A DNA stretch of 64,000 nucleotides from Bdellovibrionales bacterium (GCA_965242635.1 OZ251471.1:331388-395387); one strand, 5' to 3'. Numbered from the stretch's first letter, positions 4,279-63,236 are shown. Translations and numbers: made by a program. Notes: generated by a model not told the origin, from the sequence alone.

Positions 4279-4815
4279 GTGGACGATCTGAAGAAGAGAT
4301 TTGGAAAGAATGTGCTGAATTTTTGTCCCAAAGTGCTGAATATTCAGGATTTGGATATGGAAAAAGACACAAAGGGCTTGACATCCCGGCCTGTTTTGTT
4401 TACTTTAAAGCATATATGGCGGTTGGATGAAGCCAAGGTCCGCAAGTTTTTTATTTTGGGGCAGGAGCTAAGCCATGAGGAGAGGGAGGCTTTGGTTGGC
4501 CGGGCTGTGGACTATATGCGGAGATATGATCGAAACTTCAGTTGGAAGATGTTGCGGACTGTGGAGATTAAAACAATAAAAAGAAAGGGGGGAAGGATTA
4601 TGACTCCAGTATTGCAGTATTCATTGGATGAGGCACAGGAAAAAGGCATACAAAGAGGCTGGAAAAAAGGCTGGAAAGAAGGCGTGCAGAAAGGTATGCA
4701 ACAAGTTGCGTTAAATATGCTGAAAAAATCAGCGGATATGGCCTTTATTGCAGAAGTGACAGGCTTGTCTGAGGAAAAACTTAAAAAACTGAAAAAGCTA
4801 AAAAACAGCTCCTAA
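4279..4815 (+). pseudogene. Rpn (YhgA-like) family recombination-promoting nuclease, C-terminal remnant only
   Basis: The C-terminus KGIQRGWKKGWKEGVQKGMQQVALNMLKKSADMAFIAEVTGLSEEKLKKLKK is the characteristic Rpn tail. No PD-(D/E)XK N-domain is present. GTG start. Confidence 0.5.
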
Positions 4816-7516: not shown

Positions 7517-7626
7517 ATAGCGACTGGCAAAGTAGCCACAAAGGGATTCCCGCTTTCGCGGGAATGACAGAAAGCGACTGACAATGGCCACAAAGTGACT
7601 GACAATGGCCACATAGCGACTTTGAT
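7484..7626. repeat. R3: degenerate 21-23-bp tandem units flanking a GC hairpin
   Basis: GCCACAAAGTGACTGACAATG / GCCACATAGCGACTGGCAAAGTA and similar units lie on both sides of the hairpin at 7546-7565. Confidence 0.75.
7546..7565. repeat. R4 hairpin ATTCCCGC-TTTC-GCGGGAAT (copy 1)
   Basis: Perfect 8-bp stem. The 25-nt block GATTCCCGCTTTCGCGGGAATGACA is identical to the copy at 7770-7794. Confidence 0.9.
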
Positions 7627-7770
7627 TGGTTTTATTTTTGCTCTTATGATTGTTCATGCAATTGTTGTTATAAAAATTTGTGTTCATATAAAAACTCCTG
7701 AAATCGTCATTACCAGTTATCAAAAAGCCCCTAAGTTAATCACCACTGAAAAGGTCTTTTAGACGACCAG

Positions 7771-14855: not shown

Positions 14856-14872
14856 GTCATCCGGCCCCTTTC

Positions 14873-14957
14873 TTGTTTGAAAATGCATGCTTCAAATTTC
14901 CCAGACAGGAGGGAAAAACCTCACAAGCGACACCTTTTTCAAAACCAGTTTGGTTTG
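14873..14957 (+). repeat. R1 element, short copy lacking the GC hairpin (subfamily b)
   Basis: CTTGTTTGAAAATGCATGCTTCAAATTTCCCAGACAGGAGGGAAAAACCTCACAAGCGACACCTTTTTCAAAACCAGTTTGGTTT. Confidence 0.8.
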
Positions 14958-15947: not shown

Positions 15948-15990
15948 TTGGAAGGTATGGATGATCACTCTGAAAACAGAGAACCAGAAA

Positions 15991-16120
15991 TATACTGATC
16001 TTGTTTGAAAATGCCTGTTTCACATTTGCCTTGTGAGAGGAAAACAGCCCAAAAGTGGCACCCTTTTCAAAAGGCAGACCCCGCGGGGCAGGTTCTGCCT
16101 GCCCCGTGCCAGTTTGGTTT
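15991..16120 (+). repeat. R1 element, full copy (subfamily a) between sufC and sufD
   Basis: TATACTGATCTTGTTTGAAAATGCCTGTTTCACATTTGCCTTGTGAGAGGAAAACAGCCCAAAAGTGGCACCCTTTTCAAAAGGCAGACCCCGCGGGGCAGGTTCTGCCTGCCCCGTGCCAGTTTGGTTT. Confidence 0.9.
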
Positions 16121-16131
16121 AATTAAAGACA

Positions 16132-28264: not shown

Positions 28265-28390
28265 ACCAAACTGGCACGGGGCAGGCAAAACTTGCCCCGA
28301 GGGGTCTGCCTTTTGAAAAAGGTGCAACTTTTGGTGCGTATCCCTCCTGCAGGAAAGATAAGAAACATGCATTTTCAACAAGATCAGTTT
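28263..28390 (-). repeat. R1 element, full copy, reverse orientation, starting in the PBP1A stop codon
   Basis: AAACCAAACTGGCACGGGGCAGGCAAAACTTGCCCCGAGGGGTCTGCCTTTTGAAAAAGG...CATGCATTTTCAACAAGATCAG. Confidence 0.9.
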
Positions 28391-28415
28391 AAACATTAAA
28401 CCGGAAATTTGTCTT

Positions 28416-33880: not shown

Positions 33881-34234
33881 TGGTGGAGGCGACGAGAGTC
33901 GAACTCGTGTCCGCAAACCTTCCGCATTCAGGCTAACTACATACTTAGTCCCTGCTTAAAGGACCACTTTTATCGGCAGGAACACGATGAAAAGCGGTTT
34001 TTTACCAGCAGTTTTAAGTTTTGGACCCTGATAAAACAGACCAAAACCGAGATGGCCCAATCAACGCTTTCCACACCCTGCCATCGTAGGCATGGTCCAC
34101 GGCCACTCGTTTAAAATTAAGCGGCAAAAGCAACAGAGTTGCCAATTGGTTTTTGTGTATGTTTTTTAAGAGGTCCTCATACGCCTCTGTATGCTCCTTC
34201 AGCTTTATGACCTGCGTCAAAGCCACTCGCCCCC
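33881..34234 (-). ncRNA. ssrA: tmRNA (SsrA), tag (A)GNSVAFAA
   Basis: The 5' end GGGGGCGAGUGGCUUUGACGCAGG pairs with the 3' end UCGCCUCCACCA (G3:U present). T-arm is GAGUUCGACUCUC. The tag ORF GGC AAC TCT GTT GCT TTT GCC GCT TAA lies at 34143..34117. Confidence 0.85.
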
Positions 34235-35230: not shown

Positions 35231-35360
35231 AAACCAAACTGGCACGGGGCAAGCAGAGTCTGCCTCACAGGTTCTGCCTTTTGAAAAAGGTGCTACTTTT
35301 GGGCTGTTTTCCTCCCACAAGGCAAATGTGAAACATGCATTTTCAAACAAGATCAGTATA
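35231..35360 (-). repeat. R1 element, full copy (subfamily a), exactly filling the gap between two convergent stop codons
   Basis: AAACCAAACTGGCACGGGGCAAGCAGAGTCTGCCTCACAGGTTCTGCCTTTTGAAAAAGG...CATGCATTTTCAAACAAGATCAGTATA. Confidence 0.9.
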
Positions 35361-41205: not shown

Positions 41206-42609
41206 TTATTTTTGTTTCTTTATGTTTTTTTTGAGCTGTTTCAGGGCCTCAAGAGCCTGTTTTTTGTGTTTGTCCCTTATTTTTTTCAAAGCTGACAGGT
41301 GGTTGGCCGTGTTTTTCCGTAAAATTTTTATGGCCTCCACTGCCTGAGAGAGGGAAATACGGTTTTTAAAGCCAAAAATAATCTCCAAATGCTTTTGAAT
41401 GACAGGTATCTCCCACCCTTTGGCCCCCGCACCCAGGGTCAGGTTCTGAATATGCAGTTTCATGTGCCCTTCAATAATGCCCACAGTGGTGAGGGCCCTC
41501 AAAGCCCCCAGATTTTGTGTCAGGCCCACTGCCGCACAAATACGGGCCAGGCCCTCCGCCCCCTTCACCCCCAGCATCTTCAGGCTCATTTTGGCCGTGG
41601 GATGAAGACGGGTCATGCCCCCCACTGTCCCCACCATTAAAGGGGCACAAAAATGCCCCCAAAGCCGGCCCTTTCTGACTCTCCACTTGGTGATGGAACG
41701 GTACTGCCCATCCCGTGCGGAATAGGCATGCACACCTGCCGACACAGCCCGCCAGTCATTTCCCGTGGCTATAAGCACAGCCTCAATACCATTCATCACC
41801 CCTTTATTGCTGGTGGCGGCTCTGTAAGGGTCGGTTTCCGCAAAAAGAGAGGCCTGCTCAATTTTTTTCATCAGGGAGGGGGAAAGACCCGACATAAGCA
41901 CTTCCGCTCCAATGAGCCGGCAGTCTGACAAATTGGACACAATACAAACAGACACCTTTTCATCCGAATCCGCCTCAATCAGCAGGCGCAAATATTCACA
42001 TACCTGATTGACTATATTGGCCCCCATGGCAGAACAGGTATCCACAATGACATGAATGACCGCCATCTGTTCCAAGGATCCCGTGCTGTTTTTCATGTTT
42101 TTTTGGAGAGAACGCACCTGAAAGCCTTTTATGCCTCCTCCCCTTTTATACATGGAAGGCATAACCTCCTGATGTATTTTTTGTATCCACTCTTTTTCTT
42201 TTTCCTGTAAAAGTTTTTTCAGTTTTTCAAAATCCCGGACCTGGTGGATTTGCACCTGCCCTATAACCCCCCGGCCCGTAACAGAGGTGGTAAGGGAGCC
42301 ATGCTCCTTAATCCAGCGGGCTGTTTTGCTGGCCGAGGCAATAATGGAACTTTCCTCCACCGCCATCGGGATAACCCGCCTTTGGCCATCAATCAAAAAG
42401 TTGGTGGCCACTCCAAGGGGAATTTGAAAATAACCAATGACATTTTCAATGAATTTTTCGGCCAGATCAGGCTTTTTCAGGCCCCCTGACTTCAGATACC
42501 TCATATCCTTCAGGCTGAGAGCACCCATCCGGATAAGCCGGGACCATTTTTCCTCCCGGCTGAGACGCGAAAAACCCTTAAAAAGGTCTGTTTTGTTGTT
42601 CTCACTCAT
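41206..42609 (-). CDS. mvaA: class II hydroxymethylglutaryl-CoA reductase with Lys-rich C-terminal extension
   Basis: ENVIGYFQIPLGVATNFLIDG, PMAVEESSIIASAS, SAMGANIVNQV and GTVGG. Start at MSENNK preferred. Confidence 0.85.
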   Translation of the reverse strand: MSENNKTDLFKGFSRLSREEKWSRLIRMGALSLKDMRYLKSGGLKKPDLAEKFIENVIGYFQIPLGVATNFLIDGQRRVIPMAVEESSIIASASKTARWIKEHGSLTTSVTGRGVIGQVQIHQVRDFEKLKKLLQEKEKEWIQKIHQEVMPSMYKRGGGIKGFQVRSLQKNMKNSTGSLEQMAVIHVIVDTCSAMGANIVNQVCEYLRLLIEADSDEKVSVCIVSNLSDCRLIGAEVLMSGLSPSLMKKIEQASLFAETDPYRAATSNKGVMNGIEAVLIATGNDWRAVSAGVHAYSARDGQYRSITKWRVRKGRLWGHFCAPLMVGTVGGMTRLHPTAKMSLKMLGVKGAEGLARICAAVGLTQNLGALRALTTVGIIEGHMKLHIQNLTLGAGAKGWEIPVIQKHLEIIFGFKNRISLSQAVEAIKILRKNTANHLSALKKIRDKHKKQALEALKQLKKNIKKQK

Positions 42610-42771
42610 GGCATTTCTCACCCATGACAGCAGGTTCTTATTCACTTTGTGGTTTATATGACAAAAGACCCTTATAAAAGGTCCAGGCCCTGTTCGCAAG
42701 AAAAAACAAGCCAAATTCCCTCAATATTATTATTGACAACCACAATAAAACAAGAGAAATGATAAAAAATC

Positions 42772-43455
42772 ATGACAGAATATCAGATTCGCCTTTCAGA
42801 GAGCTGGAAAAGCCGGCTCCTCCCTGAGTTTCGTGAACCCTATATGAAGGAGCTGAAAAGCTTCCTCGTGCAGGAGATTAAGCAGAACAAATGTATTTAT
42901 CCCCGGCCGGAAGAGTATTTTTCCGCCTTTGACGCCATCCCTTTTGAGGATGTCCGGGTGGTGGTATTGGGACAGGACCCTTATCACGGCCCAGGTCAGG
43001 CACATGGCCTTTGCTTTTCTGTGCGTCCCTCCGTCCCCATGCCCCCCTCTCTGATCAATATTTTTAAAGAGCTTAAGTCGGACCTGGGCATAGCTCCGCC
43101 CCAACATGGGTGCCTTTCCTCCTGGGCCAGGCAGGGGGTTTTGCTTTTAAATGCCACTTTGACTGTGGAGGCCGGGCGGGCCGGCTCCCACCAAAACAAA
43201 GGCTGGGAGCTTTTTACCGACAAAGCCATTCACCTGCTGAACGAAGAAAGAAAAAACCTGGTGTTTTTGCTGTGGGGAAGTTTTGCACAAAAAAAAGCCA
43301 GCTTTGTGGATGAAACCAAACACCTTGTGCTGAAAGCCCCTCACCCCTCCCCTTTCTCTGCCGATCGGGGCTTTTTCGGGTGTGCCCATTTTTCCAAAAC
43401 CAACGCTTATCTCAAAGCCCAAGGGAAACCAGAAATAGACTGGCATGTGCCATAA
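42772..43455 (+). CDS. ung: uracil-DNA glycosylase (family 1)
   Basis: VVVLGQDPYHGPGQAHGLCFSV, GVLLLN and HPSPFSA. Confidence 0.95.
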   Translation: MTEYQIRLSESWKSRLLPEFREPYMKELKSFLVQEIKQNKCIYPRPEEYFSAFDAIPFEDVRVVVLGQDPYHGPGQAHGLCFSVRPSVPMPPSLINIFKELKSDLGIAPPQHGCLSSWARQGVLLLNATLTVEAGRAGSHQNKGWELFTDKAIHLLNEERKNLVFLLWGSFAQKKASFVDETKHLVLKAPHPSPFSADRGFFGCAHFSKTNAYLKAQGKPEIDWHVP

Positions 43456-43457
43456 AT

Positions 43458-43497
43458 CACACCTTTTTCAAAAGGCAGACCCGTGTTAGTTTGGTTT
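43458..43497 (+). repeat. R1 remnant (right part only) between convergent ung and trmB
   Basis: CACACCTTTTTCAAAAGGCAGACCCGTGTTAGTTTGGTTTA. The trmB stop codon lies within the GGTTTA end. Confidence 0.75.
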
Positions 43498-44263
43498 ATT
43501 TGACATAGCGTGCGTAACAGACCGGATGTTTTTGCCGGATAAAAATTTGTTCAAAAAAAGTGACAAAATTATCTCCCGTTTTTTCTTCCTCCCCAGGCCT
43601 GTTCAAAACCATGCTTTTTTTCTGCTCCCCATGCTTGTTCAGAGCCATGCTTTTCTTTCTTTCTTCGTGTAAATCCAGAGAAATATGTTGTTCCCTGTAA
43701 GGGCTTTCTTTAAAAGACTTTTGCATCTCATCAAAATACTCTTTATGGTCGGTTTTGATCTCCACAAAAGAACCTGGCCTTTGGATCATATAAAGATCTT
43801 TCAGAAAATCCGGTTTTATCAGCCGGTGCTTGTGGTGTCGTTTTTTGGGCCATGGATCCGGAAAATAAACATACACATTGTTCAGCTCTTTTTTGCAAAA
43901 AATATCCCGCAGAAGACGGGCATTATAACGGATAAGCCGGGCATTTAAACAGTTATGCTTTTTGATTTTCCGGGCACATTGAATCAAGGGCTTGTATTTC
44001 AGCTCCATGGCCACATAAAACCGGTCTTTATTTAACAAGCTTATATGTTGAATAAAATCCCCGGACCCCGGACCTATCTCCAGATCCAGAGGGGCGGACA
44101 GAGGGGCTTTAAACATCTTTTCTCTCCAATGGCCTTTGAACAGAGGGCTTTGCTCTTCGTCCCATATCCAGGAGCTGTATTCCCGATACATGGCCTGCAC
44201 ATAAGAGCTGGGGTGGCGTAAAGACCTGCTGTGGACCAAAATGGTTTGTGCCCCTTTGGACAT
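43496..44263 (-). CDS. trmB: tRNA (guanine-N7)-methyltransferase
   Basis: LEIGPGSGDFI and FPDPWPKKRHHKHRL. Confidence 0.85.
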   Translation of the reverse strand: MSKGAQTILVHSRSLRHPSSYVQAMYREYSSWIWDEEQSPLFKGHWREKMFKAPLSAPLDLEIGPGSGDFIQHISLLNKDRFYVAMELKYKPLIQCARKIKKHNCLNARLIRYNARLLRDIFCKKELNNVYVYFPDPWPKKRHHKHRLIKPDFLKDLYMIQRPGSFVEIKTDHKEYFDEMQKSFKESPYREQHISLDLHEERKKSMALNKHGEQKKSMVLNRPGEEEKTGDNFVTFFEQIFIRQKHPVCYARYVK

Positions 44264-44288
44264 GGGCTATCTCCTTCAGGCAAACAGC

Positions 44289-45347
44289 TTAAGGGGTTTC
44301 GGCCAGCAAATCCCGAAGGGCAGACACAATGTCTGTTGCCTGTGGCACAGTGGCCTGTTCCAGATTGGGATGAAGACCAATTCCGGGCAGGTTTTTGCCC
44401 GCCAGCACACGGGGAGGTGCGAATAGAGCATAAAAACATTCCTGAGTGGTTCTGTAAGCCAGGTGCTCTGCAAAGTTGGTGACCTCTGTATCTTCATTCA
44501 CAAAAAGAACCCTTTTGGTTTTTAAAATGGAGCTTTTGATGAGAGCCCAGTCATAAGGGTAAAGTGTCCTCATATCAATCAGTTCCACTTTTGCTTTTTC
44601 CTCCTCTTTCATTGCCTTTAAAGCTTTTTGACAAAGAAACAAAGACCGGCCAAAGCTGACCACTGTCACCTCTGGACCCTGTTGAATGATTTTTCCCTGG
44701 CCCAAGGGAATCTTATACTCTTTAAGCCGGGGCCACCGGGGCTTCCACTGGCTTCGATCCCCCAGGGGGGCGTCTATCATCTCCTTTAACTGGCTTTCTG
44801 TTTCCGGTTCACCGGGGATTTTTTCTTTTCCTTTAATCCTGAGCAGGGCCTTGGGTTTTAAATAAAGCACCGGGTTGGGGTCTTCGATGGCAGAGAGCAT
44901 AAGTCCATAAGCCGACAGGGGGTCAGAGGGCATGACTATTTTCCAGCCAGGGAGGCGGGTGGCCCAGGATTCAAAGCTGTGGCTATGGTAAATGGAGCCA
45001 TGGATGCCCGCACCGGTGGGGGTCATCAGCACAAAGGGCAGGGGAAATTGCCCATTGGAGGACCACAGGCAGTTTCCCGCCAGTTTCAGCAGGTCCATGG
45101 TGTTAAAAATATAGTCGGCAAACTGCACTTCTGCCACACATCGCTCCCCTGTCAGGGCGATCCCCATAGCTGTCCCCACAATGCCTCTTTCATCCAGGGG
45201 GCTGTTCCAGGTGGTTTTCAGGCCCTGGGTGACAGTAAACACCCCACCGAGGGGCGGTCCCACATCCTGGCCAAAGATATCTTTGACCTCGAGATGTTTT
45301 TCCCCATAGTGCAAAGCCATTCTGATAGCCTGTGCCATGTTAGCCAT
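44289..45347 (-). CDS. 2-oxoacid dehydrogenase E1 component, beta subunit
   Basis: Transketolase-like pyrimidine-binding and C-terminal domains (FGQDVG..GGVF, GIVGTAMGIAL, EVQFADYI). Confidence 0.85.
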   Translation of the reverse strand: MANMAQAIRMALHYGEKHLEVKDIFGQDVGPPLGGVFTVTQGLKTTWNSPLDERGIVGTAMGIALTGERCVAEVQFADYIFNTMDLLKLAGNCLWSSNGQFPLPFVLMTPTGAGIHGSIYHSHSFESWATRLPGWKIVMPSDPLSAYGLMLSAIEDPNPVLYLKPKALLRIKGKEKIPGEPETESQLKEMIDAPLGDRSQWKPRWPRLKEYKIPLGQGKIIQQGPEVTVVSFGRSLFLCQKALKAMKEEEKAKVELIDMRTLYPYDWALIKSSILKTKRVLFVNEDTEVTNFAEHLAYRTTQECFYALFAPPRVLAGKNLPGIGLHPNLEQATVPQATDIVSALRDLLAETP

Positions 45348-45489
45348 ATTGCCATTCCCTTATTGTTGATTTACACCACTCCCTCTTCATTATATCAAAG
45401 AAACTTGTATGGACACTCGTGTGAAGACCAAAGACAGAAAGGAACCTGTTAAGAACAAGACAGAAAAATCAGCTGACGGATTATCACAG

Positions 45490-45951
45490 TCAAAAGCCGT
45501 TTTTCAGCTTTTTAATCTCATCCTGAGACAAGCCTGTCACTTTGGCAATAAAATCTGTATCAGTTTTTGCCTGCAACATTTTTAAGGCTACTTTTTCCAT
45601 GCCCTTTTCCATGCCCTTTTCCATGCCCTTTTCCATGCCCTTTCGCACGCCTTCTTTCCGGCCTTCATCGTAAACTTCGTCTTTAAGTTGAGCTTTGAGC
45701 TCGTCTTTGAGGGATCGCTGATCCCGCTCATAGCGGTCAATCGACCACTCTCTCAACCTTGTCAAACGACTTGCAGGAACCCCATCAAACAAACCCACTG
45801 CTTTGGCCATGTCAGCCCCCTTTCCTGATAAAAGTTTCTTCTCCTCGCCGGTCATCTGACCCGCATTCTTTATAAAGTAACACCATTGGTCCTTTTTGTC
45901 AAGCACCTGACTTATATCCTTCTCAAAACAGCTCAAATCCACAAACACCAT
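45490..45951 (-). pseudogene. Rpn (YhgA-like) family nuclease, C-terminal remnant only
   Basis: EGRKEGVRKGMEKGMEKGMEKGMEKVALKMLQAKTDTDFIAKVTGLSQDEIKKLK. The nuclease domain is absent. An in-frame TGA lies 13 codons upstream of the ATG. Confidence 0.55.
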
Positions 45952-46208
45952 ACCCAGCTGATTGTAAAATTTTTTATGCTTTGCGTTATGATCTCCTCAA
46001 GTGGTTTTTGGACAAGTCCCTGAGAGCACCAAAACTTTCACTGACAACCACTTTATCACTCTTTCCACCTCATCCGGGCCAAAGCCATATTGGCTTGCAC
46101 TGAGTCCAAAGCCATGTAATAATCATACATGGGTCTTCTCGCAGAAAAGAGTCCTTGAGGGGACCTCTTTTTCCATTTATCACCTTAACAAAGGAAAAGT
46201 TAAGCAAG

Positions 46209-47066
46209 ATGAAAACTTCCGCTCGGACATCAAAACACACACCTTTTTACTCAGCAGAGTACTTCAAGCTTTACCAGGGTAATGCTTTGGCCCTTTTGAA
46301 AGAGATGAAGGCAAACTCTGTGGATATGATCTTTGCCGATCCTCCTTATAATCTTTCCAATGGGGGGTTTTCTGTGCGATCAGGAAAACGGGTGGATGTG
46401 CATAAAGGCCATTGGGACAAAAGTGCCGGGCCGTTGAAAGACTTTGATTTTCATCTCTCCTGGATTTCTGCCTGCCGGAGGGTGCTCAAGCCAGAAGGGA
46501 CAATATGGATCAGTGGGACTTATCACTCTATTTATCAATGTGGTTTTGCCTTGCAAAAAGAGAACTTCAGGATTTTAAATGATATTGCATGGCATAAGCC
46601 CAATGCTCCTCCCAACATCGGGTGCCGGTGTTTTTCTGCCAGCCATGAGAGTCTGATTTGGGCCTGCAAGGATAAAACAGCAAAACACACTTTTAACTAT
46701 ATAGATATGAAGCAAAATACATGGAAAGGGGACTTTATCAAGCAACCCGGAAAGCAGATGCGATCGGTTTGGGTCATTAACACAGCCAGCCCATCGGAGA
46801 AGAGAGCGGGTCGGCATCCCACACAAAAGCCTTTGGCCCTCCTGGACCGGATTATTCTGGCCAGCACAAAAGAGGGGGACCTGGTTTTGGATCCTTTTAC
46901 AGGAAGCTCCACCACGGGGATTTCTGCGTATCGTTTAAAGAGGTCTTTTATTGGAATGGACCTGGAGGCTGAGTTTTTGGAGCTTTCTGTCCAAAGATTC
47001 AAAGAACTTTTGAACCCACCACAAATGGAACTGACCTTCAACACACAACACAGCCCATCCATGTGA
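46209..47066 (+). CDS. beta-class DNA amino-methyltransferase (DPPY type)
   Basis: Motif IV DMIFADPPYNL is N-terminal. HPTQKPLALLDRII is present. Motif I LDPFTGSSTTG is C-terminal. SD AAGGAAAAG lies before the ATG at 46209. Confidence 0.85.
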   Translation: MKTSARTSKHTPFYSAEYFKLYQGNALALLKEMKANSVDMIFADPPYNLSNGGFSVRSGKRVDVHKGHWDKSAGPLKDFDFHLSWISACRRVLKPEGTIWISGTYHSIYQCGFALQKENFRILNDIAWHKPNAPPNIGCRCFSASHESLIWACKDKTAKHTFNYIDMKQNTWKGDFIKQPGKQMRSVWVINTASPSEKRAGRHPTQKPLALLDRIILASTKEGDLVLDPFTGSSTTGISAYRLKRSFIGMDLEAEFLELSVQRFKELLNPPQMELTFNTQHSPSM

Positions 47067-47144
47067 AAACACTATAAACATACAAGCCAAACAAAAAAGA
47101 TGAAATTTATGTAAAAAGGGACTTGAAATCCTGTTTTACATAAG

Positions 47145-47245
47145 CTATAATTGAGCTTTGCACAAATCCGCCCTTCGTAAATCCATCCTGCTCAAATTTG
47201 CTTCTCGCAAATCACGCTTTGAAGACCATTCTCTGCCTCAATATT
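47145..47245 (-). pseudogene. pentapeptide-repeat gene relic (no start codon)
   Basis: Four exact 15-bp periods at 47161-47220 translate on the minus strand as RDLRE ANLSR MDLRR ADLCK AQL*. The frame is closed by a TGA about 12 codons upstream. Confidence 0.35.
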
Positions 47246-47353
47246 AACGCTATATGTCAAAAAGACCCCCCATAAACGATCAAAAGGCAGGAAATCAGGA
47301 TTTTTTATTTTTTTACTCTTGACCATTATCACAATAAAGGATAGATACAAGCC

Positions 47354-48238
47354 ATGCAAACAACAGAACTTTGGAATGATAAAGTTGAAAACCAGTTTTT
47401 TCAACACCTTTTAACAAAAGGAAAGTCTTTATCACCAAAAAAGCTTTTTTATTTGATAAATGATAAGTACTTGGCTTATATTCCAAAAAATGTCCCCTCA
47501 CCAGGGTACACTTTACAAAGCAGAAATGCACTTATTGGACAGTGGACAGAACAATGGTGTCAACAATTGCTTTCTCCCATTGCCCGAAAATTTAACTTGC
47601 ATGCTGTGCCTAATGTAATATGCCAGGAAGCCGGATTATCCAAACAATCTCGTGCAGATATCGCTTTTTGTAAAAATAATAACCAGTATTAGAAGTGTAA
47701 AGACATAAAAATGATTTTTGAAATAAAAATGAGTATAATATCAAATCATGAATTTGATAAGAATACAAAAATTGTTAACCGGATAGGGGATTGGACAACT
47801 CATAAGGGCAATCCTTCTTTACTGAGATCTGATTCCATGTTAAAAGCCATAGGAAAATTAATCAGCATCAGGGTGACAAACCCAGGCACGAGGAATATTC
47901 CTTTGGTTGTATTGGGAAATTCACCTATTACGAAACACTATGAAAAAAAGGTTGATTCTCTAAAAAAATTGGGGGTTATACAGGGTTTTTTGTCACTTAA
48001 CCCTTCATTGCTGTATAAAAAAGGAGTCATTAAGAACACTCCAAAAAAAGGTTTTCAAACTATTGAAAATAAGAAAGCCCTGGAGAAGCTGTTTGGAAAA
48101 TTAATCTCTCCCCAAGCAGTATATTTTTCTGCAATGACTTTGAAAAGCAAGTTGGGGCAAATGATTTCTCAGTCAAATATGGAAAAAAGTATGGCAGAAA
48201 AAGCAGAAAAATTTTTAAACCTGATAGGAGAAGTTTGA
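47354..48238 (+). pseudogene. PD-(D/E)XK restriction endonuclease interrupted by one in-frame TAG (47690-47692)
   Basis: ORFs 47354..47692 and 47711..48238 share a frame. The sequence reads ...SRADIAFCKNNNQY*KCKDIKMIFEIKMS..., so the stop separates the D from the ExK. Confidence 0.65.
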
Positions 48239-49149
48239 TGAAAAAAACCAAAACACAAACTCAGTCTTTTGGGAGTTCAGGAAGGCAGGGGCATGACTCC
48301 TCCCTTTTTTATGGATCAAAACTATATAAAAGCCTGGACTTCAAAGAAGACAAAAAAAATAACAAAGAAAACTCCGTTCAAAAAGAGCTTGTTAACAAAA
48401 TTTTCTTAAAATCCTCAACAAAGATGTCTGAATTGCCGGATAACTCCATTCATTTAATGATAACATCCCCACCTTATAATGTTTCAAAAGATTATGACGA
48501 AAATTTGTCTTTGGAGGAGTACTTGAATTTTCTTAAAAAGGTTTTTTCAGAAACATACAGAGTGCTGGTCAGAGGAGGGAGAGCTTGTATCAATATTGCC
48601 AATATAGGGCGAAAACCCTATATCCCTCTTTCTGATTATATTTCCAAAATGATGATGGACACAGGTTTTTTAATGAGAGGGGAAATTATATGGAACAAGT
48701 CTGCCTCCTCAGGGACTTCCACAGCTTGGGGGAGCTGGTGTTCTCCGTCCAACCCCACTTTAAGAGATGTGCATGAATACATTTTAATCTTTTCAAAAGG
48801 GGCCTATAAAAGAGAACAAAAGAACAAAAAAATCACAATTCAAAAAGAACAGTTTATTGAATGGACAAAATCCATTTGGAATATGAAGACAGAGTCTGCC
48901 AAAAAAATAGGCCATCCTGCCCCATTCCCGGAAGAGTTGCCCTTTCGGCTTATGCAACTTTATTCTTTTGCAGGTGATATTGTTTTGGATCCTTTTATGG
49001 GAAGTGGCACCACGGCTGTTGTGGGATTAAAAACCGGCAGAAAATTTGTAGGCTACGAAATAAATGAAGATTATGTGACTACAGCCAATGAAAGAATACG
49101 CAACTTGCAAGCTCATTTTTGTCATTCTCATTCATTTTTACAACCTTGA
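48235..49149 (+). CDS. beta-class DNA amino-methyltransferase (SPPY type)
   Basis: HLMITSPPYNV, GHPAPFPEELP and LDPFMGSGTTAVVG. ATGA overlap with the endonuclease ORF end. Confidence 0.85.
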   Translation: MMKKTKTQTQSFGSSGRQGHDSSLFYGSKLYKSLDFKEDKKNNKENSVQKELVNKIFLKSSTKMSELPDNSIHLMITSPPYNVSKDYDENLSLEEYLNFLKKVFSETYRVLVRGGRACINIANIGRKPYIPLSDYISKMMMDTGFLMRGEIIWNKSASSGTSTAWGSWCSPSNPTLRDVHEYILIFSKGAYKREQKNKKITIQKEQFIEWTKSIWNMKTESAKKIGHPAPFPEELPFRLMQLYSFAGDIVLDPFMGSGTTAVVGLKTGRKFVGYEINEDYVTTANERIRNLQAHFCHSHSFLQP

Positions 49150-49156
49150 TTGATTA

Positions 49157-49287
49157 TATACCGATCTTGTTTGAAAATGCATGTTTCAAATTTCCCAGAC
49201 AGGAGGGAAACACCTCACAAGCGACACCTTTTTCAAAAGGCAGACCCCTCGGGGCAGGTTCTGCCTGCCCCGTGCCAGGTTGGTTTA
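49157..49287 (+). repeat. R1 element, full copy (subfamily b), containing the E1 alpha stop codon
   Basis: TATACCGATCTTGTTTGAAAATGCATGTTTCAAATTTCCCAGACAGGAGGGAAACACCTCACAAGCGACACCTTTTTCAAAAGGCAGACCCCTCGGGGCAGGTTCTGCCTGCCCCGTGCCAGGTTGGTTTAA. Confidence 0.9.
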
Positions 49288-50268
49288 AAATTTTCGCCAG
49301 TCGGCGTTCTCCCCTTCCGCATACACATGATCCCAAATGGACTTGGCGTCCGGATTTTCCTCCCCCTTCACCTCCTGCTGTATCTGCCGGGCCTCAGCCT
49401 CAAAAGAATCCCATGTCTCTTTTCGCTCTTTTTCTGTCAACAAGTTCTGTCTTTTTAGTTTTTTCTCCAGCAAAGCAATGCAACAAGGTTCCCCCTCAAC
49501 ATAATTGGCACCGGAAGCAGAGGAATGCCCATACAAACGGGACACACGGGCCTCCAGCAAAACAGGACGACGCTTATCCCGTACATAATGTATTTTCTCT
49601 TTCAAAGCATTGTAGACCGCCACAGGATCATTTCCGTCCAACAAAAGAGTGTCCATATTAAAGGCTTTTCCGCGATCAATAATATGGCTTTCCCCATGTT
49701 GCCCCTCATAAGAGGTGGAAATGCCATAGCCATTGTTTTGCACCGTGATAAGTATGGGTAAAGGCCGGGCCGGGCGGGAAGCCCATACAAGACAGGTGGC
49801 AAAATCCGCTTCTGCCGTGCCTGCATCACCCCCTGTGACCACAGTAATACCGTTTTTATGAGAACGGCTTTGTGCATGTGCTGTGCCCAAAGCTATACTG
49901 TATTGAGGGCCAATAACAGAGGTGACAGGAGCCACATTCCACTCAGGCACAGCATAATGGTTGGCAAAATTCCTGCCCCCGGTGTGCCTGTCTGTCTTTT
50001 TGTTCATCATCAAACGGATGGCTGACCGGATGGAAAGCCCCATCGCCATCAAAGTGGGTGTTCCACGATAATGCAAATGAAGAAAGTCATGCTTAAGGCC
50101 CTGCCCTTTTTTAATCAACAGGCCCAAAGGAACACCAAAAGCCTCTTCCCCAGGCCCCCCAATCCAGAAATGCCCCTGGCCCTGCTTGTAAATCTGAATA
50201 AGCCTCTCCTCTGTCACACGGGATTTCACCATAAGACGATATATCTTTAACAACAATTGTGGTTCCAT
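49285..50268 (-). CDS. 2-oxoacid dehydrogenase E1 component, alpha subunit (TPP-binding)
   Basis: TPP motif GGDAGTAEADFATCLVWA...ILITVQNNGYGIST. 327 aa. Confidence 0.85.
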   Translation of the reverse strand: MEPQLLLKIYRLMVKSRVTEERLIQIYKQGQGHFWIGGPGEEAFGVPLGLLIKKGQGLKHDFLHLHYRGTPTLMAMGLSIRSAIRLMMNKKTDRHTGGRNFANHYAVPEWNVAPVTSVIGPQYSIALGTAHAQSRSHKNGITVVTGGDAGTAEADFATCLVWASRPARPLPILITVQNNGYGISTSYEGQHGESHIIDRGKAFNMDTLLLDGNDPVAVYNALKEKIHYVRDKRRPVLLEARVSRLYGHSSASGANYVEGEPCCIALLEKKLKRQNLLTEKERKETWDSFEAEARQIQQEVKGEENPDAKSIWDHVYAEGENADWRKF

Positions 50269-50276
50269 TTATGTCT

Positions 50277-50350
50277 CCAAAAACAGCACCCTTGCCAAAA
50301 GCTGGAACCCGTGGGTCAGAGTCTGCCTGCACCCCAAGCCAGTTTGGTTT
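50277..50350 (+). repeat. R1 partial copy (right half) between the E1 alpha start and the protease stop
   Basis: CCAAAAACAGCACCCTTGCCAAAAGCTGGAACCCGTGGGTCAGAGTCTGCCTGCACCCCAAGCCAGTTTGGTTT. Confidence 0.75.
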
Positions 50351-52529
50351 ATTTTTCCATCTGGGCTATCCGGGTGCGGGACTCCCACTCCACCTGATCC
50401 AAAGCGATATTCATCGCTTCCTCAATATCCGCCCGCTGAGCCATGTATTTTTTTCTGGCCTTCCTCGTCCTGACCATTCTAATCCGCCGGCGGCTCTCCA
50501 CCTCTTTGGCCTTTTTTTCTGCCGTCTGTTCCTCTTTTTTGGCCTGATCAAATATTTCCGCTATAGTGGTGGCATAACCTGTTTGCCGTTTGTTTTTTAT
50601 TTCCATGATGTCTTTTCCGATCTCCTGAAATTTTTTATTCTCTTTAATTCTTTTCAGGGAGTTTTTTTTCAAAAAAGAGATTAACTGATCAGAAACCGGA
50701 TTCCATTTACGTCCTCTCTTTGATTTGTAAGCGGAAGAGGAGATAAAATTGGGAATTTTCCTTTCAGGTAAAAAATAATCCAGGTTTTTTTCCCCTATTT
50801 CCTCGTTGGAAAAAATATTGGGGAACACAATATCAGAAGCCACCCCTTTAAGTTGGGTGGAAAACCCATTGGGCACAAAAAACAAACCCACTGTAACACG
50901 AATGGATCCCAAGCCCATCCGCAAACGCTCCACAGACTGAATACTGCCCTTGCCAAAAGTATGATCCCCGCCCACAATCACCGCCCTCTTGTAAGATTTT
51001 AAAGTGCCGGACACAATTTCCGAAGCACTGGCACTCACCCGATTGATCAACACAACCAAAGGGCCTGAGTAGATAATTTTATCATCCACATCCGATAAAG
51101 TCAGATAGCGATCGCCGTTTTTGGTCTTTACCAACTGACGCACCACACTCCCCTTGGCAAAAAACAAACCCGCCACCCGGACCGCTTCAGTCAAAGAGCC
51201 ACCTCCATTGCTGGACATATCCAGCACCAAAGCAGACACCTTTTTCCTTCTGGCTTTGAGCAACAGTCTTTTGACATCTTTTGTGACTGATCGCCCGCCG
51301 GAACGTCGCCCCGCCCCATAAAAAGAGGGAACTGTCAACACAGCCACTTTATGTGTCCTGCCATTTCTTTTCTGATCAAAATAATATATATCCGCGGCCT
51401 GATCCTTCAAATGCACCCTGTCCCTGATAAGCCGGACAGTAAATATTTTGGTTTTTTTGGTTTTGCCTTTTTTGTTGGTTCGCATAATCTTCAAATAAAC
51501 CGGTGTGCCTTTCCTGCCTCGAATCATATTGACCACATCCCTTATATTCATATCAAAAATATTGATCATTTTTTTGGCTTTTTGGCCCACAGCCAGAATT
51601 TTATCCTTGGGCTTGATTTTACCGGAACGGTCCGCCGAACCACCGGGGACAAGCCTCTCGATCACTGTGTGTCCATACCGGGAGCTGAGGCTGGCCCCAA
51701 TGCCCTCCAGGGAAAGTCGCATGTTGATTTCAAAATCCTCATGGGCCTGTCTGGAAAGATAACCGGAATGAGGATCAAAACCCTTGGCAAAGCTGTTCAG
51801 ATAAAAAGTATACCATTTGTCCGGCTTGCATATCACAACATCACCAGAGGATTTTCTCTTGTTATAGCACTTCTTTTTTTCCTCTTCTGACAGATGAACA
51901 GACCAGCTTTTGACTTCTTTTTTTAACCGGCTGTAACTGCGCAAAATGTTTTGTTTGGCCTCCACCACCTGATCTTTGTATTGTTCTTTGTCGCTGGCTA
52001 TAACAGCATTGGCCATCTGATACTGAATGTATTTCTTGTGAAAATTGTTGATTTGACGCAAAGTCCTGCTTCTTTTTCTTTTCCGGGGATCCAGTGTGAT
52101 CCTGACCCCCGGCTCCAGGATAAAAGTTTCATTCAGGTAATCATGGGCGAATTTCACCCGCTCCAGCACTCTTTTATTGTATAAAGTGTAAATGCGGTTT
52201 AAATCAGAACAATTCTCCTCTTTTATTTTTTTGAAAATATTCTTCATTTGTTTTTTGATATTGTTGATGTCTGACTGGGTAAAATACAGCTTTTCTGAAT
52301 CCAGGGATTTGATAAACTGCTCTTTCACTCTCGTCTCCAATTTTGCCATTTTCTGCCTGAATGCCTTTTGTTTCTTTTTCTTTCTGTCAAAATTGGAAAA
52401 ACTGATATGCAAATCCAGATATTTGTCCTGAATGTCATGCAAATAAGAACACTTGAGATCCACCGCATGACCAAAAACAGGCAGGAGACAAACGGCAAAA
52501 AAGAAAACACAAACACGACAGAATTTCAT
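50349..52529 (-). CDS. S41 family C-terminal processing (tail-specific) protease
   Basis: Has a signal peptide, a PDZ region and a catalytic block VVLINRVSASASEIVSG...GGDHTFGKGSIQ. Confidence 0.85.
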   Translation of the reverse strand: MKFCRVCVFFFAVCLLPVFGHAVDLKCSYLHDIQDKYLDLHISFSNFDRKKKKQKAFRQKMAKLETRVKEQFIKSLDSEKLYFTQSDINNIKKQMKNIFKKIKEENCSDLNRIYTLYNKRVLERVKFAHDYLNETFILEPGVRITLDPRKRKRSRTLRQINNFHKKYIQYQMANAVIASDKEQYKDQVVEAKQNILRSYSRLKKEVKSWSVHLSEEEKKKCYNKRKSSGDVVICKPDKWYTFYLNSFAKGFDPHSGYLSRQAHEDFEINMRLSLEGIGASLSSRYGHTVIERLVPGGSADRSGKIKPKDKILAVGQKAKKMINIFDMNIRDVVNMIRGRKGTPVYLKIMRTNKKGKTKKTKIFTVRLIRDRVHLKDQAADIYYFDQKRNGRTHKVAVLTVPSFYGAGRRSGGRSVTKDVKRLLLKARRKKVSALVLDMSSNGGGSLTEAVRVAGLFFAKGSVVRQLVKTKNGDRYLTLSDVDDKIIYSGPLVVLINRVSASASEIVSGTLKSYKRAVIVGGDHTFGKGSIQSVERLRMGLGSIRVTVGLFFVPNGFSTQLKGVASDIVFPNIFSNEEIGEKNLDYFLPERKIPNFISSSAYKSKRGRKWNPVSDQLISFLKKNSLKRIKENKKFQEIGKDIMEIKNKRQTGYATTIAEIFDQAKKEEQTAEKKAKEVESRRRIRMVRTRKARKKYMAQRADIEEAMNIALDQVEWESRTRIAQMEK

Positions 52530-55483: not shown

Positions 55484-56146
55484 TCATTTTTTCCCACTGA
55501 GTTTGAAGGAAGAATCATCATAGTTGGACAATAACATGCGGATCTTGTCCCTGAATATCACCTGTAGACGATGGTTTTTACTGCTGATAATCCAGCCCCA
55601 TCCAAAAACCGGATGACGAAGAGGGGTTTTGGCAGAAAAAATCCTGGAAATATGAAAGGGAACAGGTTTTATGTCCTGTGCTCTTTTATACAGATTTTCC
55701 CACTTTCTTTCGTGTTCTTTTTGCCGTTTTTCCTCTTTTTTGTTGGCCTTGTCCTCCGCGGATGATTTTTTTTTCGGCTCATCTGCCTTTTTTTTGGCTT
55801 CGTCTGTTGGACTTTTGGCCTGGATTGGCCCCTTGACCTTTGGAGCTTTGGCCGGCACACTTTTGGCCTTGACGGGCTTGGCCGGCTTGCTCTGAACCTT
55901 GCTGGCCTGAACCTTGGACTTGGCCGGCTTGGCCGATGAGCTTTTCACCTTGCTGGCCTGAACCTTGGACTTGGCCGGCTTGGCCGGCTTGCTCTGAACC
56001 TTGCTGGCCTGAACCTTGGCCTTGGCCGGCTTGCTCAGAACCTTGCTGGCCTGAACCTTGGCCTTGACCGGCTTGGCCGATGAGCTTTTCACCTTGCTGG
56101 CCTGAACCTTGGCCTTCTGGTCTTTTGTGACAGTTTTGGTCGGCAT
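55484..56146 (-). CDS. Lys/Ala-rich repeat protein (histone H1 / AlgP-like N-terminal half) with unknown C-terminal domain
   Basis: There are about 7 units of AKVQASKV(Q/K)S(K/S)(P/S)AKPA(K). This is followed by a charged linker and the domain ...HPVFGWGWIISSKNHRLQVIF... Confidence 0.6.
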   Translation of the reverse strand: MPTKTVTKDQKAKVQASKVKSSSAKPVKAKVQASKVLSKPAKAKVQASKVQSKPAKPAKSKVQASKVKSSSAKPAKSKVQASKVQSKPAKPVKAKSVPAKAPKVKGPIQAKSPTDEAKKKADEPKKKSSAEDKANKKEEKRQKEHERKWENLYKRAQDIKPVPFHISRIFSAKTPLRHPVFGWGWIISSKNHRLQVIFRDKIRMLLSNYDDSSFKLSGKK

Positions 56147-60731: not shown

Positions 60732-60736
60732 ATTTT

Positions 60737-60875
60737 TATACTGAACTTTGTTTGAAAATGCATGTTTCTTATCTTTGCCTGTCCGGGGGAAACCACATCA
60801 GAGGCCACACCCTTTTCAAAGGGCAGACCCTTCGTCGGGGCAGGTTCTGCCTGCCCCCAAGCCAGTTTGGCTTAA
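60737..60875 (+). repeat. R1 element, divergent full copy, overlapping the last ~20 codons of cutA
   Basis: TATACTGAACTTTGTTTGAAAATGCATGTTTC...CACCCTTTTCAAAGGGCAGACCCTTCGTCGGGGCAGGTTCTGCCTGCCCCCAAGCCAGTTTGGCTTAA. Confidence 0.85.
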
Positions 60876-63013: not shown

Positions 63014-63122
63014 AAAAACCCTCCTTTTTTAAAGCCCTTTTTGTGACTTTTTTTTACCAATAAGGCCCTTATACCTGATTTTGCCCCCTTTGTCCAACTA
63101 AATTGGCAGGAATGACTTGGTT

Positions 63123-63236
63123 TAAACCAAACTGGCACGGGGCAGGGTCTGCCTTTTGAAAAAGGTGTCGCTTTTGGGCTGTTTTCCTCCCACAAGGCAA
63201 ATATGAAACATGCATTTTCAAACAAGATCAGTTTAA
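63123..63236 (-). repeat. R1 element (subfamily a), short GC hairpin
   Basis: AAACCAAACTGGCACGGGGCAGGGTCTGCCTTTTGAAAAAGGTGTCGCTTTTGGGCTGTTTTCCTCCCACAAGGCAAATATGAAACATGCATTTTCAAACAAGATCAG. Confidence 0.9.

What the first reader, a model, noticed from the sequence alone, without database searches (positions are those of the whole stretch)
45348..49284. A 3.9-kb island carrying an M-R-M restriction-modification cassette splits the E1 alpha and E1 beta genes
E1 alpha (49285..50268) and E1 beta (44289..45347) of a 2-oxoacid dehydrogenase are on the same strand. In known pdh, bkd and aco operons they are adjacent. Here they are separated by an Rpn-nuclease remnant, two beta-class methyltransferases flanking an endonuclease gene (all on the opposite strand), a pentapeptide-repeat relic, and an R1 copy that contains the alpha-subunit stop codon. 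The cassette looks more A/T-rich than its surroundings, although I did not compute this. Inserting antisense-oriented genes into an operon should uncouple beta-subunit expression from alpha. An M-R-M order with two methylases resembles what I recall of the MboI arrangement.
Basis: partly seen in the sequence, partly recalled or inferred. Interest (0 to 1): 0.65.

Follow-up and report, generated by a model that had tools for sequence, protein, structure and literature searches.

The report
Selfish-DNA mosaic splitting an E1 gene pair
In an uncultured Bdellovibrionales bacterium, the two normally overlapping genes for the E1 alpha and beta subunits of a 2-oxoacid dehydrogenase are separated by 3.9 kb of accumulated selfish DNA; this is real, but it is an ordinary kind of event rather than a special three-gene M-R-M cassette.

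Summary
E1 alpha (49285..50268) and E1 beta (44289..45347) lie on the minus strand, 3,937 nt apart. In 66 of 78 related Bdellovibrionales loci the two genes overlap as TAATG, and only the window's closest subclade has spacers of 24 nt or more. The insert is a mosaic, not a single M-R-M cassette. From the alpha side it contains:
- a ~130-nt multicopy repeat (R1) that supplies or overlaps the alpha stop codon;
- a low-GC (34-37%) two-gene R->M2 type II restriction-modification unit, which occurs as a pair in five of five other genomes, each time at a different site and never with M1;
- a pentapeptide-repeat relic;
- a solitary CcrM/HinfI-like methylase, M1, with host-like GC (46%);
- a previously unnoticed IS110-family relic;
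- an Rpn C-terminal remnant.

The endonuclease gene carries an in-frame TAG that replaces an invariant Gln between the putative catalytic D and ExK. One public run of the same population has CAG there, so the null allele is still segregating. Both E1 genes are intact. How beta is transcribed could not be tested. Restriction-modification units inserted into operons are already documented, so interest is modest.

The parts
44289..45347 (-). E1 beta subunit gene of a 2-oxoacid dehydrogenase (352 aa, intact)
   Evidence: Pfam Transket_pyr + Transketolase_C. 81-83% aa identity to the closest relatives over the full length. dN/dS about 0.05-0.06 where computable.
45348..45489 (-). Leader upstream of E1 beta. 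The proximal ~22 nt (45348..45369, with the ribosome-binding site) are shared with relatives' short spacers; the rest is unique sequence.
   Evidence: blastn homology with L003/L005 extends to 45354-45369. Spacer sequences compared.
45480..45507 (-). Candidate promoter for E1 beta (CTGAAA-16-GATAAT with TG), a consensus match only
   Evidence: 9 of 12 matches. Not tested by RNA data.
45490..45951 (-). Rpn-family C-terminal remnant (153 aa, no nuclease domain; contains a 12-nt tandem repeat encoding MEKG x4)
   Evidence: TIGR01784 32.6 bits, below cutoff, covering only the profile's C-terminal end. 35% identity (E 1e-25) to the C-terminal part of the 354-aa PDDEXK_2 protein in L086. Depth about 8-10x that of unique sequence.
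46062..46182 (-). Relic of an IS110-family element: 5' non-coding end plus the first ~23 codons of the transposase (MYDYYMALDSVQANMALARM)
   Evidence: 91% and 76% nt identity to two parts of L005 spacer positions 134-279, and 52% aa identity to the start of the L005 transposase. The L005 protein is DEDD_Tnp_IS110 + Transposase_20. Orientation relative to the E1 genes is the same as in L005.
46209..47066 (+). M1: solitary beta-class DNA methyltransferase with DPPY, short CcrM/HinfI-like, intact, host-like GC 46.2%
   Evidence: Pfam N6_N4_Mtase 187 bits. PDB 6pbd CcrM 200 bits. 85-86% identical orthologues elsewhere have no adjacent endonuclease-like gene. GC.
47067..47353 (.). M1-R spacer (34.8% GC). 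It holds an 18-nt-arm palindrome (47107..47143), a near-consensus promoter-like site TTGAAA-17-TATAAT (47123..47151, +) and a pentapeptide-repeat relic (47148..47237, -). A 10-nt direct repeat ATACAAGCCA (47080 and 47345) flanks it.
47354..48238 (+). R: putative type II restriction endonuclease gene (295 codons). In-frame TAG at 47690-47692 in this sequence; CAG in one run of the same population.
   Evidence: Q113 invariant; D102, E123, K125 invariant; T/C polymorphism; model with an alpha-beta-beta-beta-alpha-beta core.
48235..49149 (+). M2: beta-class DNA methyltransferase with SPPY (N4-cytosine-like motif), cognate partner of R with a 4-nt overlap, intact
   Evidence: Pfam N6_N4_Mtase 175 bits. 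PADLOC MTase_II 406 bits. 85% identical orthologues always follow R.
49156..49288 (.). R1: ~130-nt hairpin-rich intergenic repeat (MITE/REP-like). Its last three bases are the E1 alpha stop codon.
   Evidence: Depth about 1400-1750 against 25-35 for unique sequence.
49285..50268 (-). E1 alpha subunit gene (327 aa, intact)
   Evidence: Pfam E1_dh 144 bits. 72-77% aa identity to the closest relatives (L001, L003-L009). dN/dS about 0.06-0.10.
50277..50361 (.). Partial R1-like copy between the Ctp stop and the E1 alpha start

Best explanation
The 3.94 kb between E1 alpha and E1 beta is a mosaic of at least five unrelated pieces of selfish or mobile DNA that accumulated in several events at a junction that had already opened in this symbiont-type Bdellovibrionales subclade.

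Shown:
- The ancestral state is a TAATG overlap of the two genes.
- The subclade has 24-330-nt spacers, and one member (L005) carries a full IS110-family element at this junction.
- The window carries a relic of such an element in the same orientation, an Rpn remnant, an R1 repeat, a solitary methylase M1 and a two-gene R->M2 unit.
- R->M2 is a self-contained unit found elsewhere at different sites.
- Its GC (34-37%; GC3 31-36%) matches the lower-GC sister lineages (32-40%) and not this 45.7% genome.
- The R allele in the window is a nonsense allele (invariant Gln, CAG to TAG), and a CAG allele exists in the same sample.

Inferred:
- R->M2 is a type II restriction-modification system with a PD-(D/E)XK-like nuclease. 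It arrived recently by horizontal transfer from a related low-GC lineage and is transcribed from its own promoter at 47123..47151.
- While R was active, loss of the unit would have been penalised by post-segregational killing. R is now being inactivated, which leaves M2 as an orphan methylase, the usual decay route.
- M1 is an older, independently acquired orphan adenine methylase, probably of GANTC type.
- E1 beta is no longer co-translated, and probably not co-transcribed, with alpha. It is expressed from a promoter inside the insert, the candidate being 45480..45507.
For: - Synteny and junction census.
- IS110 element in L005 and the relic in the window.
- R->M2 as a pair at five different sites in three phyla.
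- Homology with relatives ends at the ORF borders (47335..49124 and 46190..47099).
- M1 orthologues without an adjacent endonuclease-like gene.
- Composition.
- Nonsense codon at an invariant Gln between D102 and E123-x-K125.
- T/C polymorphism at 47690 between runs of one sample.
- Promoter-like site.
- Intact E1 genes with dN/dS of 0.05-0.10.
- Island pieces present with zero differences in contigs of three samples.
- Precedent for restriction-modification units inserted between subunit genes: PMC4615327, PMC2853133.
Against: - R has no match in Pfam, NCBIfam, PADLOC, PHROGs, PDB sequences or PDB folds. Its nuclease identity therefore rests on gene context, a motif and predicted topology.
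- No empty-site allele of the same species was found, and no target duplications, so the order and mechanism of the insertions are not resolved.
- A 10-nt direct repeat flanks the 265-nt M1-R spacer. If it is a target duplication, M1 and R were once only ~23 nt apart.
- Short-read contigs break inside the Rpn and R1 repeats, so the two linkages rest on the source assembly.
- No transcript data exist.
Confidence: 0.75

Rival explanations
1. One three-gene M1-R-M2 cassette (MboI-like, or type IIS-like with one methylase per strand) inserted as a unit. The pentapeptide-bearing 265 nt were inserted later between M1 and R.
For: - The physical order M-R-M on one strand.
- A 10-nt direct repeat ATACAAGCCA flanks the M1-R spacer, so removing the spacer would put M1 ~23 nt from R.
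- In L081 an M1 orthologue lies ~9.7 kb upstream of R-M2 on the same strand.
Against: - Five of five other R-M2 loci lack an upstream DNA methylase.
- M1 orthologues have no adjacent endonuclease-like gene.
- GC is 46% for M1 against 34-37% for R-M2.
- DPPY and SPPY catalytic motifs point to different modified bases.
- R is not of the DpnII/MboI family.
- By my own estimate, several exact 10-mer repeats are expected by chance in 4.1 kb.
Confidence: 0.1
2. Assembly artefact: the 3.2-kb block 45936..49184 was misplaced between two repeats (an Rpn copy and an R1 copy), and the real insert between the E1 genes is smaller.
For: - Logan short-read contigs end at 45553, 45936, 49184 and 49249, so they do not bridge the repeats.
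- Joints from R1 to Rpn sequence exist elsewhere in the genome.
Against: - The source contig is ~2.0 Mb. With a ~50-copy repeat this implies long reads, which easily span 130-460 nt.
- The block's ends carry the truncated Rpn 5' border and the R1 5' border.
- Even in this scenario alpha is followed by R1 and beta is preceded by an Rpn remnant, so the gene pair is still split.
Confidence: 0.05
3. The arrangement is adaptive: the insert was retained because it gives E1 beta independent regulation, or because methylation by M1 or M2 controls the E1 genes.
For: Both E1 genes remain intact under purifying selection. The island is present in three samples.
Against: - The content is relics and pseudogenes of unrelated selfish elements.
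- Relatives show different junk at the same junction: IS110 in L005 and tandem duplications in L006.
- No data link methylation to expression.
Confidence: 0.07

Closest known systems
Type II restriction-modification gene pairs behaving as mobile units, including insertion between genes of one operon (Furuta et al. 2010, PMC2853133; PabI family between the glutamate synthase large and small chain genes, PMC4615327)
   Same: A bare R+M pair with no mobility gene of its own, GC lower than the host's, found at different sites in related genomes, and here lying between two subunit genes of one enzyme.
   Different: It is on the opposite strand to the host genes, whereas the published operon cases are co-oriented. 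No long target duplication was found. It is embedded in other junk. R is a segregating nonsense allele.
MboI system (mboA-mboB-mboC, M-R-M; recalled from my own knowledge of Ueno et al. 1993, paper not found in the library)
   Same: Gene order: methylase, endonuclease, methylase on one strand.
   Different: R has no DpnII/MboI-family match. The trio is not conserved anywhere else examined. The two methylases have different catalytic motifs and different composition.
CcrM/HinfI-type beta-class N6-adenine methyltransferases
   Same: M1 aligns over CcrM residues 17-262 (PDB 6pbd, 200 bits) and has DPPY. Its close relatives have no adjacent endonuclease-like gene.
   Different: It lacks CcrM's C-terminal domain. 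It scores 240 bits against the 830-bit equivalog cutoff. Specificity was not determined.
IS110-family insertion sequences
   Same: L005 has a full element (DEDD_Tnp_IS110 + Transposase_20) between the same two genes. The window keeps ~120 nt of the 5' end in the same orientation.
   Different: In the window it is only a relic, with no transposase.
MITE/REP-like intergenic repeats
   Same: R1 is ~130 nt, multicopy, strictly intergenic and hairpin-rich, with ends that abut stop codons.
   Different: Terminal inverted repeats, target duplications and a cognate transposase were not established.

Membership tests
Heterodimeric 2-oxoacid dehydrogenase E1 (alpha + beta) | Alpha subunit with the E1_dh (TPP-binding) domain; beta subunit with Transket_pyr + Transketolase_C | tested here: met
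   E1_dh 144 bits; Transket_pyr 75 bits; Transketolase_C 86 bits.
Heterodimeric 2-oxoacid dehydrogenase E1 (alpha + beta) | Assignment to pyruvate dehydrogenase specifically (NCBIfam equivalog cutoffs) | tested here: not met
   172 bits against a 411-bit cutoff (alpha) and 161 bits against 321 (beta). No E2 gene lies next to the pair in any relative examined. Substrate unknown.
Type II restriction-modification system (R + cognate M) | DNA methyltransferase with catalytic and AdoMet motifs | tested here: met
   M2: N6_N4_Mtase 175 bits, SPPY and DPFMGSGTT. PADLOC MTase_II 406 bits.
Type II restriction-modification system (R + cognate M) | R and M co-inherited as an adjacent unit | tested here: met
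   Five of five other loci show R directly followed by its methylase: a 4-nt overlap in four loci and a 5-nt gap in Brachyspira.
Type II restriction-modification system (R + cognate M) | Recognisable endonuclease catalytic domain | tested here: inconclusive
   Invariant D102 and E123-x-K125 sit on consecutive predicted strands of an alpha-beta-beta-beta-alpha-beta core. There is no hit in Pfam, NCBIfam, PADLOC, PHROGs or PDB sequences, and the best Foldseek E-value is 0.19.
Type II restriction-modification system (R + cognate M) | Intact R reading frame | tested here: not met
   TAG at 47690-47692 in the window and in runs X1 and X2. CAG (intact) in run X3.
Type II restriction-modification system (R + cognate M) | Site-specific cleavage blocked by the cognate methylation | not testable with these tools
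   Needs enzyme assays or methylome data.
MboI/DpnII-type M-R-M system | Endonuclease of the DpnII/MboI family | tested here: not met
   No Pfam family matches either half of R or the intact orthologue P0001.
MboI/DpnII-type M-R-M system | Three genes inherited together | tested here: not met
   None of five R-M2 loci has an upstream DNA methylase. M1 orthologues have no adjacent endonuclease-like gene.
MboI/DpnII-type M-R-M system | Both methylases modify the same recognition site | not testable with these tools
   DPPY against SPPY suggests different bases (inference).
Beta-class N6/N4 DNA methyltransferases | Motif IV ((D/S)PPY) N-terminal to motif I (FxGxG) | tested here: met
   M1: FADPPYNL before DPFTGSSTTG. 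M2: TSPPYNV before DPFMGSGTTA.
CcrM (GANTC) equivalog | NCBIfam NF050803 score at or above cutoff, plus the C-terminal domain | tested here: not met
   240 bits against 830; M1 covers only positions 5-259 of the 350-position profile.
Rpn family (recombination-promoting nuclease / putative transposase) | PD-(D/E)XK nuclease domain (PDDEXK_2) plus the C-terminal region | tested here: not met
   Only the C-terminal region is present: TIGR01784 positions 207-273, 32.6 bits against a 52.1-bit cutoff. It is a remnant.
IS110 family insertion sequence | DEDD transposase gene | tested here: not met
   The window keeps only ~23 N-terminal codons and ~50 nt of the 5' end. The L005 element is complete.

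The most novel reading that the evidence does not exclude
R founds an uncharacterised, widespread restriction-endonuclease family: 1,378 database proteins with E <= 0.001, the listed ones ~285-300 aa, in several phyla, always paired with an SPPY beta-class methylase. A confidently predicted structure (pLDDT 84) has no detectable relative among solved folds. Separately, the E1 alpha/beta junction of this symbiont subclade is a recurrent landing pad: small repeats seed it, IS110-type elements follow, and other selfish DNA then accumulates.
Probability: 0.3. Interest if true: 0.45.

Novelty: new member of a known kind. Interest (0 to 1): 0.3.

Why it matters
It is a clean natural example of how a tightly coupled two-subunit gene pair (TAATG overlap in most of the order) can be pulled apart step by step by selfish DNA in a reduced, repeat-rich genome without losing either gene. 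It also catches a restriction gene in the act of being inactivated: TAG and CAG alleles occur in one sample. In addition it flags an unannotated putative endonuclease family that could be characterised. None of this overturns current understanding, because restriction-modification units are known to move and to land inside operons.

Tried and rejected
- Exact look-up of the E1 beta protein found no record.
- No run could be identified as RNA (the same four runs came back, kind unknown), so transcription of E1 beta could not be examined.
- tblastn of the intact R orthologue against plasmids and phages found nothing. Only one of 2.9 million viral contigs carries a relative. No vector for the transfer was therefore identified.
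- R was searched against Pfam, NCBIfam, PADLOC, PHROGs, PDB sequences and, as an AlphaFold model, against PDB folds. Nothing was significant.
- A search for target-site duplications or terminal repeats around R-M2 and around the whole insert found only short, probably chance repeats, plus the conserved methylase motif shared by M1 and M2.
- dN/dS against relatives: synonymous sites are saturated (dS of 2 or more), so the test cannot date the insertion or detect recent relaxation.
- A 'goes back 3701' joint (49195 to 45495) was considered as a sign of a circular or tandemly duplicated island. I rejected this because island depth is not raised and both sides are multicopy repeats.
- TAG recoding was rejected: TAG ends 3 of 34 long ORFs, and the site is a CAG/TAG polymorphism.
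- The MboI primary paper was not in the library.
Full report
**What is there.**
On the minus strand lie E1 beta (44289..45347; Transket_pyr + Transketolase_C) and E1 alpha (49285..50268; E1_dh). Between them are 3,937 nt. Read from the alpha side, the insert contains:
- M2 (48235..49149, +), a beta-class N6_N4 methylase with SPPY;
- a 295-codon frame (47354..48238, +) whose stop overlaps the M2 start by 4 nt;
- a 287-nt spacer holding a pentapeptide-repeat relic (47148..47237, -; Pfam 22.7 bits against a 20.2-bit cutoff);
- M1 (probable ATG at 46209, to 47066, +), a beta-class methylase with DPPY and a short CcrM/HinfI-like architecture (PDB 6pbd, 200 bits);
- a ~120-nt relic of an IS110-family element (46062..46182, -);
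- an Rpn C-terminal remnant (45490..45951, -);
- 142 nt of leader before the E1 beta start codon.

There are four corrections. The 'endonuclease' frame has an in-frame TAG. Only R, M2 and the spacer are A/T-rich. The IS110 relic was missed. The Rpn remnant is on the E1 strand.

**Is it an insertion?**
The organism is a Bdellovibrionales lineage. The closest genomes share 81-83% aa identity in E1 beta, and several of their record names suggest sponge-derived MAGs. That reading of the names is mine and is not documented.

Of 78 related loci that hold both genes, 66 have the stop and start overlapping as TAATG and five have 0-2-nt spacers. Only seven have 24 nt or more. Six of those seven are the window's closest relatives: L001 and L003-L007, with 24, 30, 74, 1760, 330 and 58 nt. 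TopA-Ctp-E1a-E1b synteny is conserved across the order, and no E2 gene is adjacent in any relative examined.

The window's genes are therefore the orthologous pair of one enzyme, and the 3.9-kb separation is derived. No relative has methylase, R or Rpn sequence at this junction.

**The junction was already open, and is invaded repeatedly.**
The 1,760-nt spacer of L005 contains a complete IS110-family element (DEDD_Tnp_IS110 + Transposase_20), while its close sister L003 has 30 nt.

Window 46141..46182 and 46084..46140 match L005 spacer positions 134-175 (91%) and 222-279 (76%). Window 46062..46130 encodes MYDYYMALDSVQANMALARM, which corresponds to the first 23 residues of the L005 transposase. 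The orientation relative to the E1 genes is the same.

L006 has tandem duplications at the junction. About 22 nt immediately upstream of the E1 beta start, including the ribosome-binding site, are shared by the window, L003 and L005. Loss of the TAATG coupling therefore predates the island.

**The 'M-R-M cassette' is two unrelated things.**
The read-through R protein retrieves 1,378 database proteins (E <= 0.001). The listed ones are nearly all uninterrupted proteins of about 285-300 aa, none has a Pfam domain, and the few that carry a name are called 'hypothetical protein'.

In three close relatives (78-82% aa identity) R is followed by an M2 orthologue (85% identity) with a 4-nt overlap. The site differs each time: before cysS, between tuf and an M14 peptidase gene, and inside a defence island. 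None has an M1-type gene upstream. The same two-gene unit is found in a Brevinematales genome and in Brachyspira murdochii.

Nucleotide homology between the window and the relatives starts 0-19 nt before the R start codon and ends 25-50 nt before the M2 stop. The shared unit is therefore just the two ORFs.

M1's closest orthologues (85-86%) sit without an adjacent endonuclease-like gene, next to a Dam-like methylase. More distant ones (69%) sit next to a DUF6996 gene.

Composition separates the two parts:

| Feature | GC | GC3 |
|---|---|---|
| R | 33.8% | 31% |
| M2 | 37.2% | 36% |
| M1-R spacer | 34.8% | not applicable |
| M1 | 46.2% | 50% |
| E1 genes | 49-52% | 50-57% |
| Whole window | 45.7% | not applicable |

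The sister lineages have 32-40% GC, and their R-M2 copies have 30-32%.

A near-consensus promoter-like site (TTGAAA-17-TATAAT, 11 of 12 matches) lies at 47123..47151, upstream of R.

The simplest reading is this. R-M2 is a recent horizontal arrival from a lower-GC relative, with its own promoter. M1 is an older, independent orphan methylase.

One observation points the other way. A window-specific 10-nt direct repeat, ATACAAGCCA, occurs at 47080 and again at 47345, the second copy abutting the R start codon. If it were a target duplication, M1 and R would once have been ~23 nt apart. By my own estimate, several exact 10-mer repeats are expected by chance in 4.1 kb, so I treat it as unexplained.

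**Is R an endonuclease, and is it alive?**
R matches nothing in Pfam, NCBIfam, PADLOC, PHROGs or PDB sequences.

An AlphaFold model of the intact orthologue P0001 is confident (pLDDT 84, pTM 0.81). It has an alpha-beta-beta-beta-alpha-beta core in which invariant D102 and E123-x-K125 lie on consecutive strands, the PD-(D/E)XK pattern. Foldseek nevertheless finds no significant PDB neighbour; the best E-value is 0.19. Nuclease identity is thus an inference from gene context, motif and topology.

In the window, the invariant Gln113 codon is TAG, which cuts the protein between D and ExK. TAG is an ordinary stop codon here, ending 3 of 34 long ORFs.

Contigs from four public runs of the same host organism carry the island sequence. 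The main contigs have zero differences in X1 and X2, the few low-depth contigs of X4 are also identical, and X3 has three differences or fewer per contig. At 47690, X1 and X2 have T, but X3, from the same sample as X2, has C (CAG). X3 shows no other difference within 47550..47850. The null allele is therefore a segregating polymorphism. The system was functional until very recently and is decaying by the usual route, in which R is lost first and M2 remains as an orphan.

**Consequences for the E1 genes.**
Both genes are full length. Their dN/dS against relatives is 0.05-0.10, the same as between uninterrupted relatives, but dS is saturated, so the test is insensitive to recent change.

On the E1 strand, alpha is followed immediately by the GC-rich R1 hairpins and a T-run. 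A consensus-level extended -10 promoter candidate lies at 45480..45507, 133 nt upstream of beta.

No run could be identified as RNA, so independent transcription of beta is inferred and not shown.

**Reliability of the structure.**
Short-read contigs confirm three segments: 44000..45553, 45936..49184 and 49249..50500. They break inside the Rpn repeat (~8-10x depth) and the R1 repeat (~50x depth). The linkages rest on the source assembly, a ~2.0-Mb contig. With these repeats, a contig of that size implies long reads. Even under mis-assembly, alpha would be followed by R1 and beta preceded by an Rpn remnant.

**Comparison with what is known.**
Restriction-modification pairs are known to move without mobility genes. 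They often have lower GC than the host, and they have been found between subunit genes of one enzyme, for example the glutamate synthase large and small chain genes (PMC2853133, PMC4615327). This case differs in three ways: it is in antisense orientation, it is embedded in other relics, and it has a segregating R-null allele.

It is not a member of the MboI/DpnII type. The R family does not match, the trio is not conserved, and the two methylases have different catalytic motifs.

**Verdict.**
This is a real, derived, multi-event insertion and a new member of a known kind. Interest is modest. The less ordinary elements are the unannotated putative endonuclease family and the repeated invasion of this one junction.

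Noticed in passing
window 390-540, 14871-14944, 15990-16122, 28262-28391, 35231-35360, 43459-43482, 49156-49288, 50287-50351, 60734-60875, 63121-63235: R1 is a ~130-nt hairpin-rich repeat that is strictly intergenic and often fills the whole gap between genes. Its ends abut or supply stop codons. Read depth suggests about 50 copies per genome. R1-like copies also occur in relatives L081 and L085.
   Followed up: partly
L005 8238-9997: A complete IS110-family element sits between E1 alpha and E1 beta in a relative. It is flanked by ~25-nt direct repeats (AAGAGAGAATATGGG...) and lies within a short repeat that also occurs in L042, L074 and L082. The close sister L003 lacks it.
   Followed up: partly
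window 47080-47089 and 47345-47354: An exact 10-nt direct repeat ATACAAGCCA brackets the 265-nt M1-R spacer. The second copy abuts the R start codon. It is not present at these positions in relatives. It could be chance or a target duplication.
   Followed up: partly
window 47107-47143: An 18-nt-arm palindrome (TTATGTAAAAAGGGACTT / AAATCCTGTTTTACATAA) overlaps the -35 of the promoter-like site upstream of R. It could be an operator or a terminator for M1.
   Followed up: no
window 45593-45651: A 12-nt tandem repeat (4-5 copies) encodes MEKG x4 inside the Rpn remnant. A second Rpn C-terminal fragment lies at 4279-4815 (+).
   Followed up: no
window 41206-44263 versus L004-L008, L070: The genes downstream of E1 beta differ in every relative: pyrG, an aminotransferase gene, a DDE transposase gene, an AAA_14 gene. 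In the window they are TrmB-UDG-HMG-CoA reductase. The conserved block ends at E1 beta. No E2 or E3 gene is adjacent anywhere.
   Followed up: partly
window 48381-48887 (read laying): The same samples contain low-depth contigs about 87% identical to M2, which indicates a second R-M2-like copy or a co-resident related strain.
   Followed up: no
L084 1-4532; L083 1-9470; L081 1-4207: Related genomes are dense in defence and methylase genes near the M1 or R-M2 orthologues: a Cas12-type (C2c1-like RuvC) CRISPR locus with Cas4/Cas1 and Cas2, an NgoPII-like restriction-modification system, GmrSD, and several Dam-like and N6_N4 methylases.
   Followed up: no
window 33881-34234: tmRNA gene on the minus strand (ARAGORN), with an unusual hydrophobic tag peptide AGKKPLFIVFLPIKVVL.
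   Followed up: no
window 4847-7723 and 55823-56116: Long low-complexity coding repeats: GGGD and GGGPFGG tracts in a 958-aa ORF, and 51-nt tandem repeats downstream of topA.
   Followed up: no
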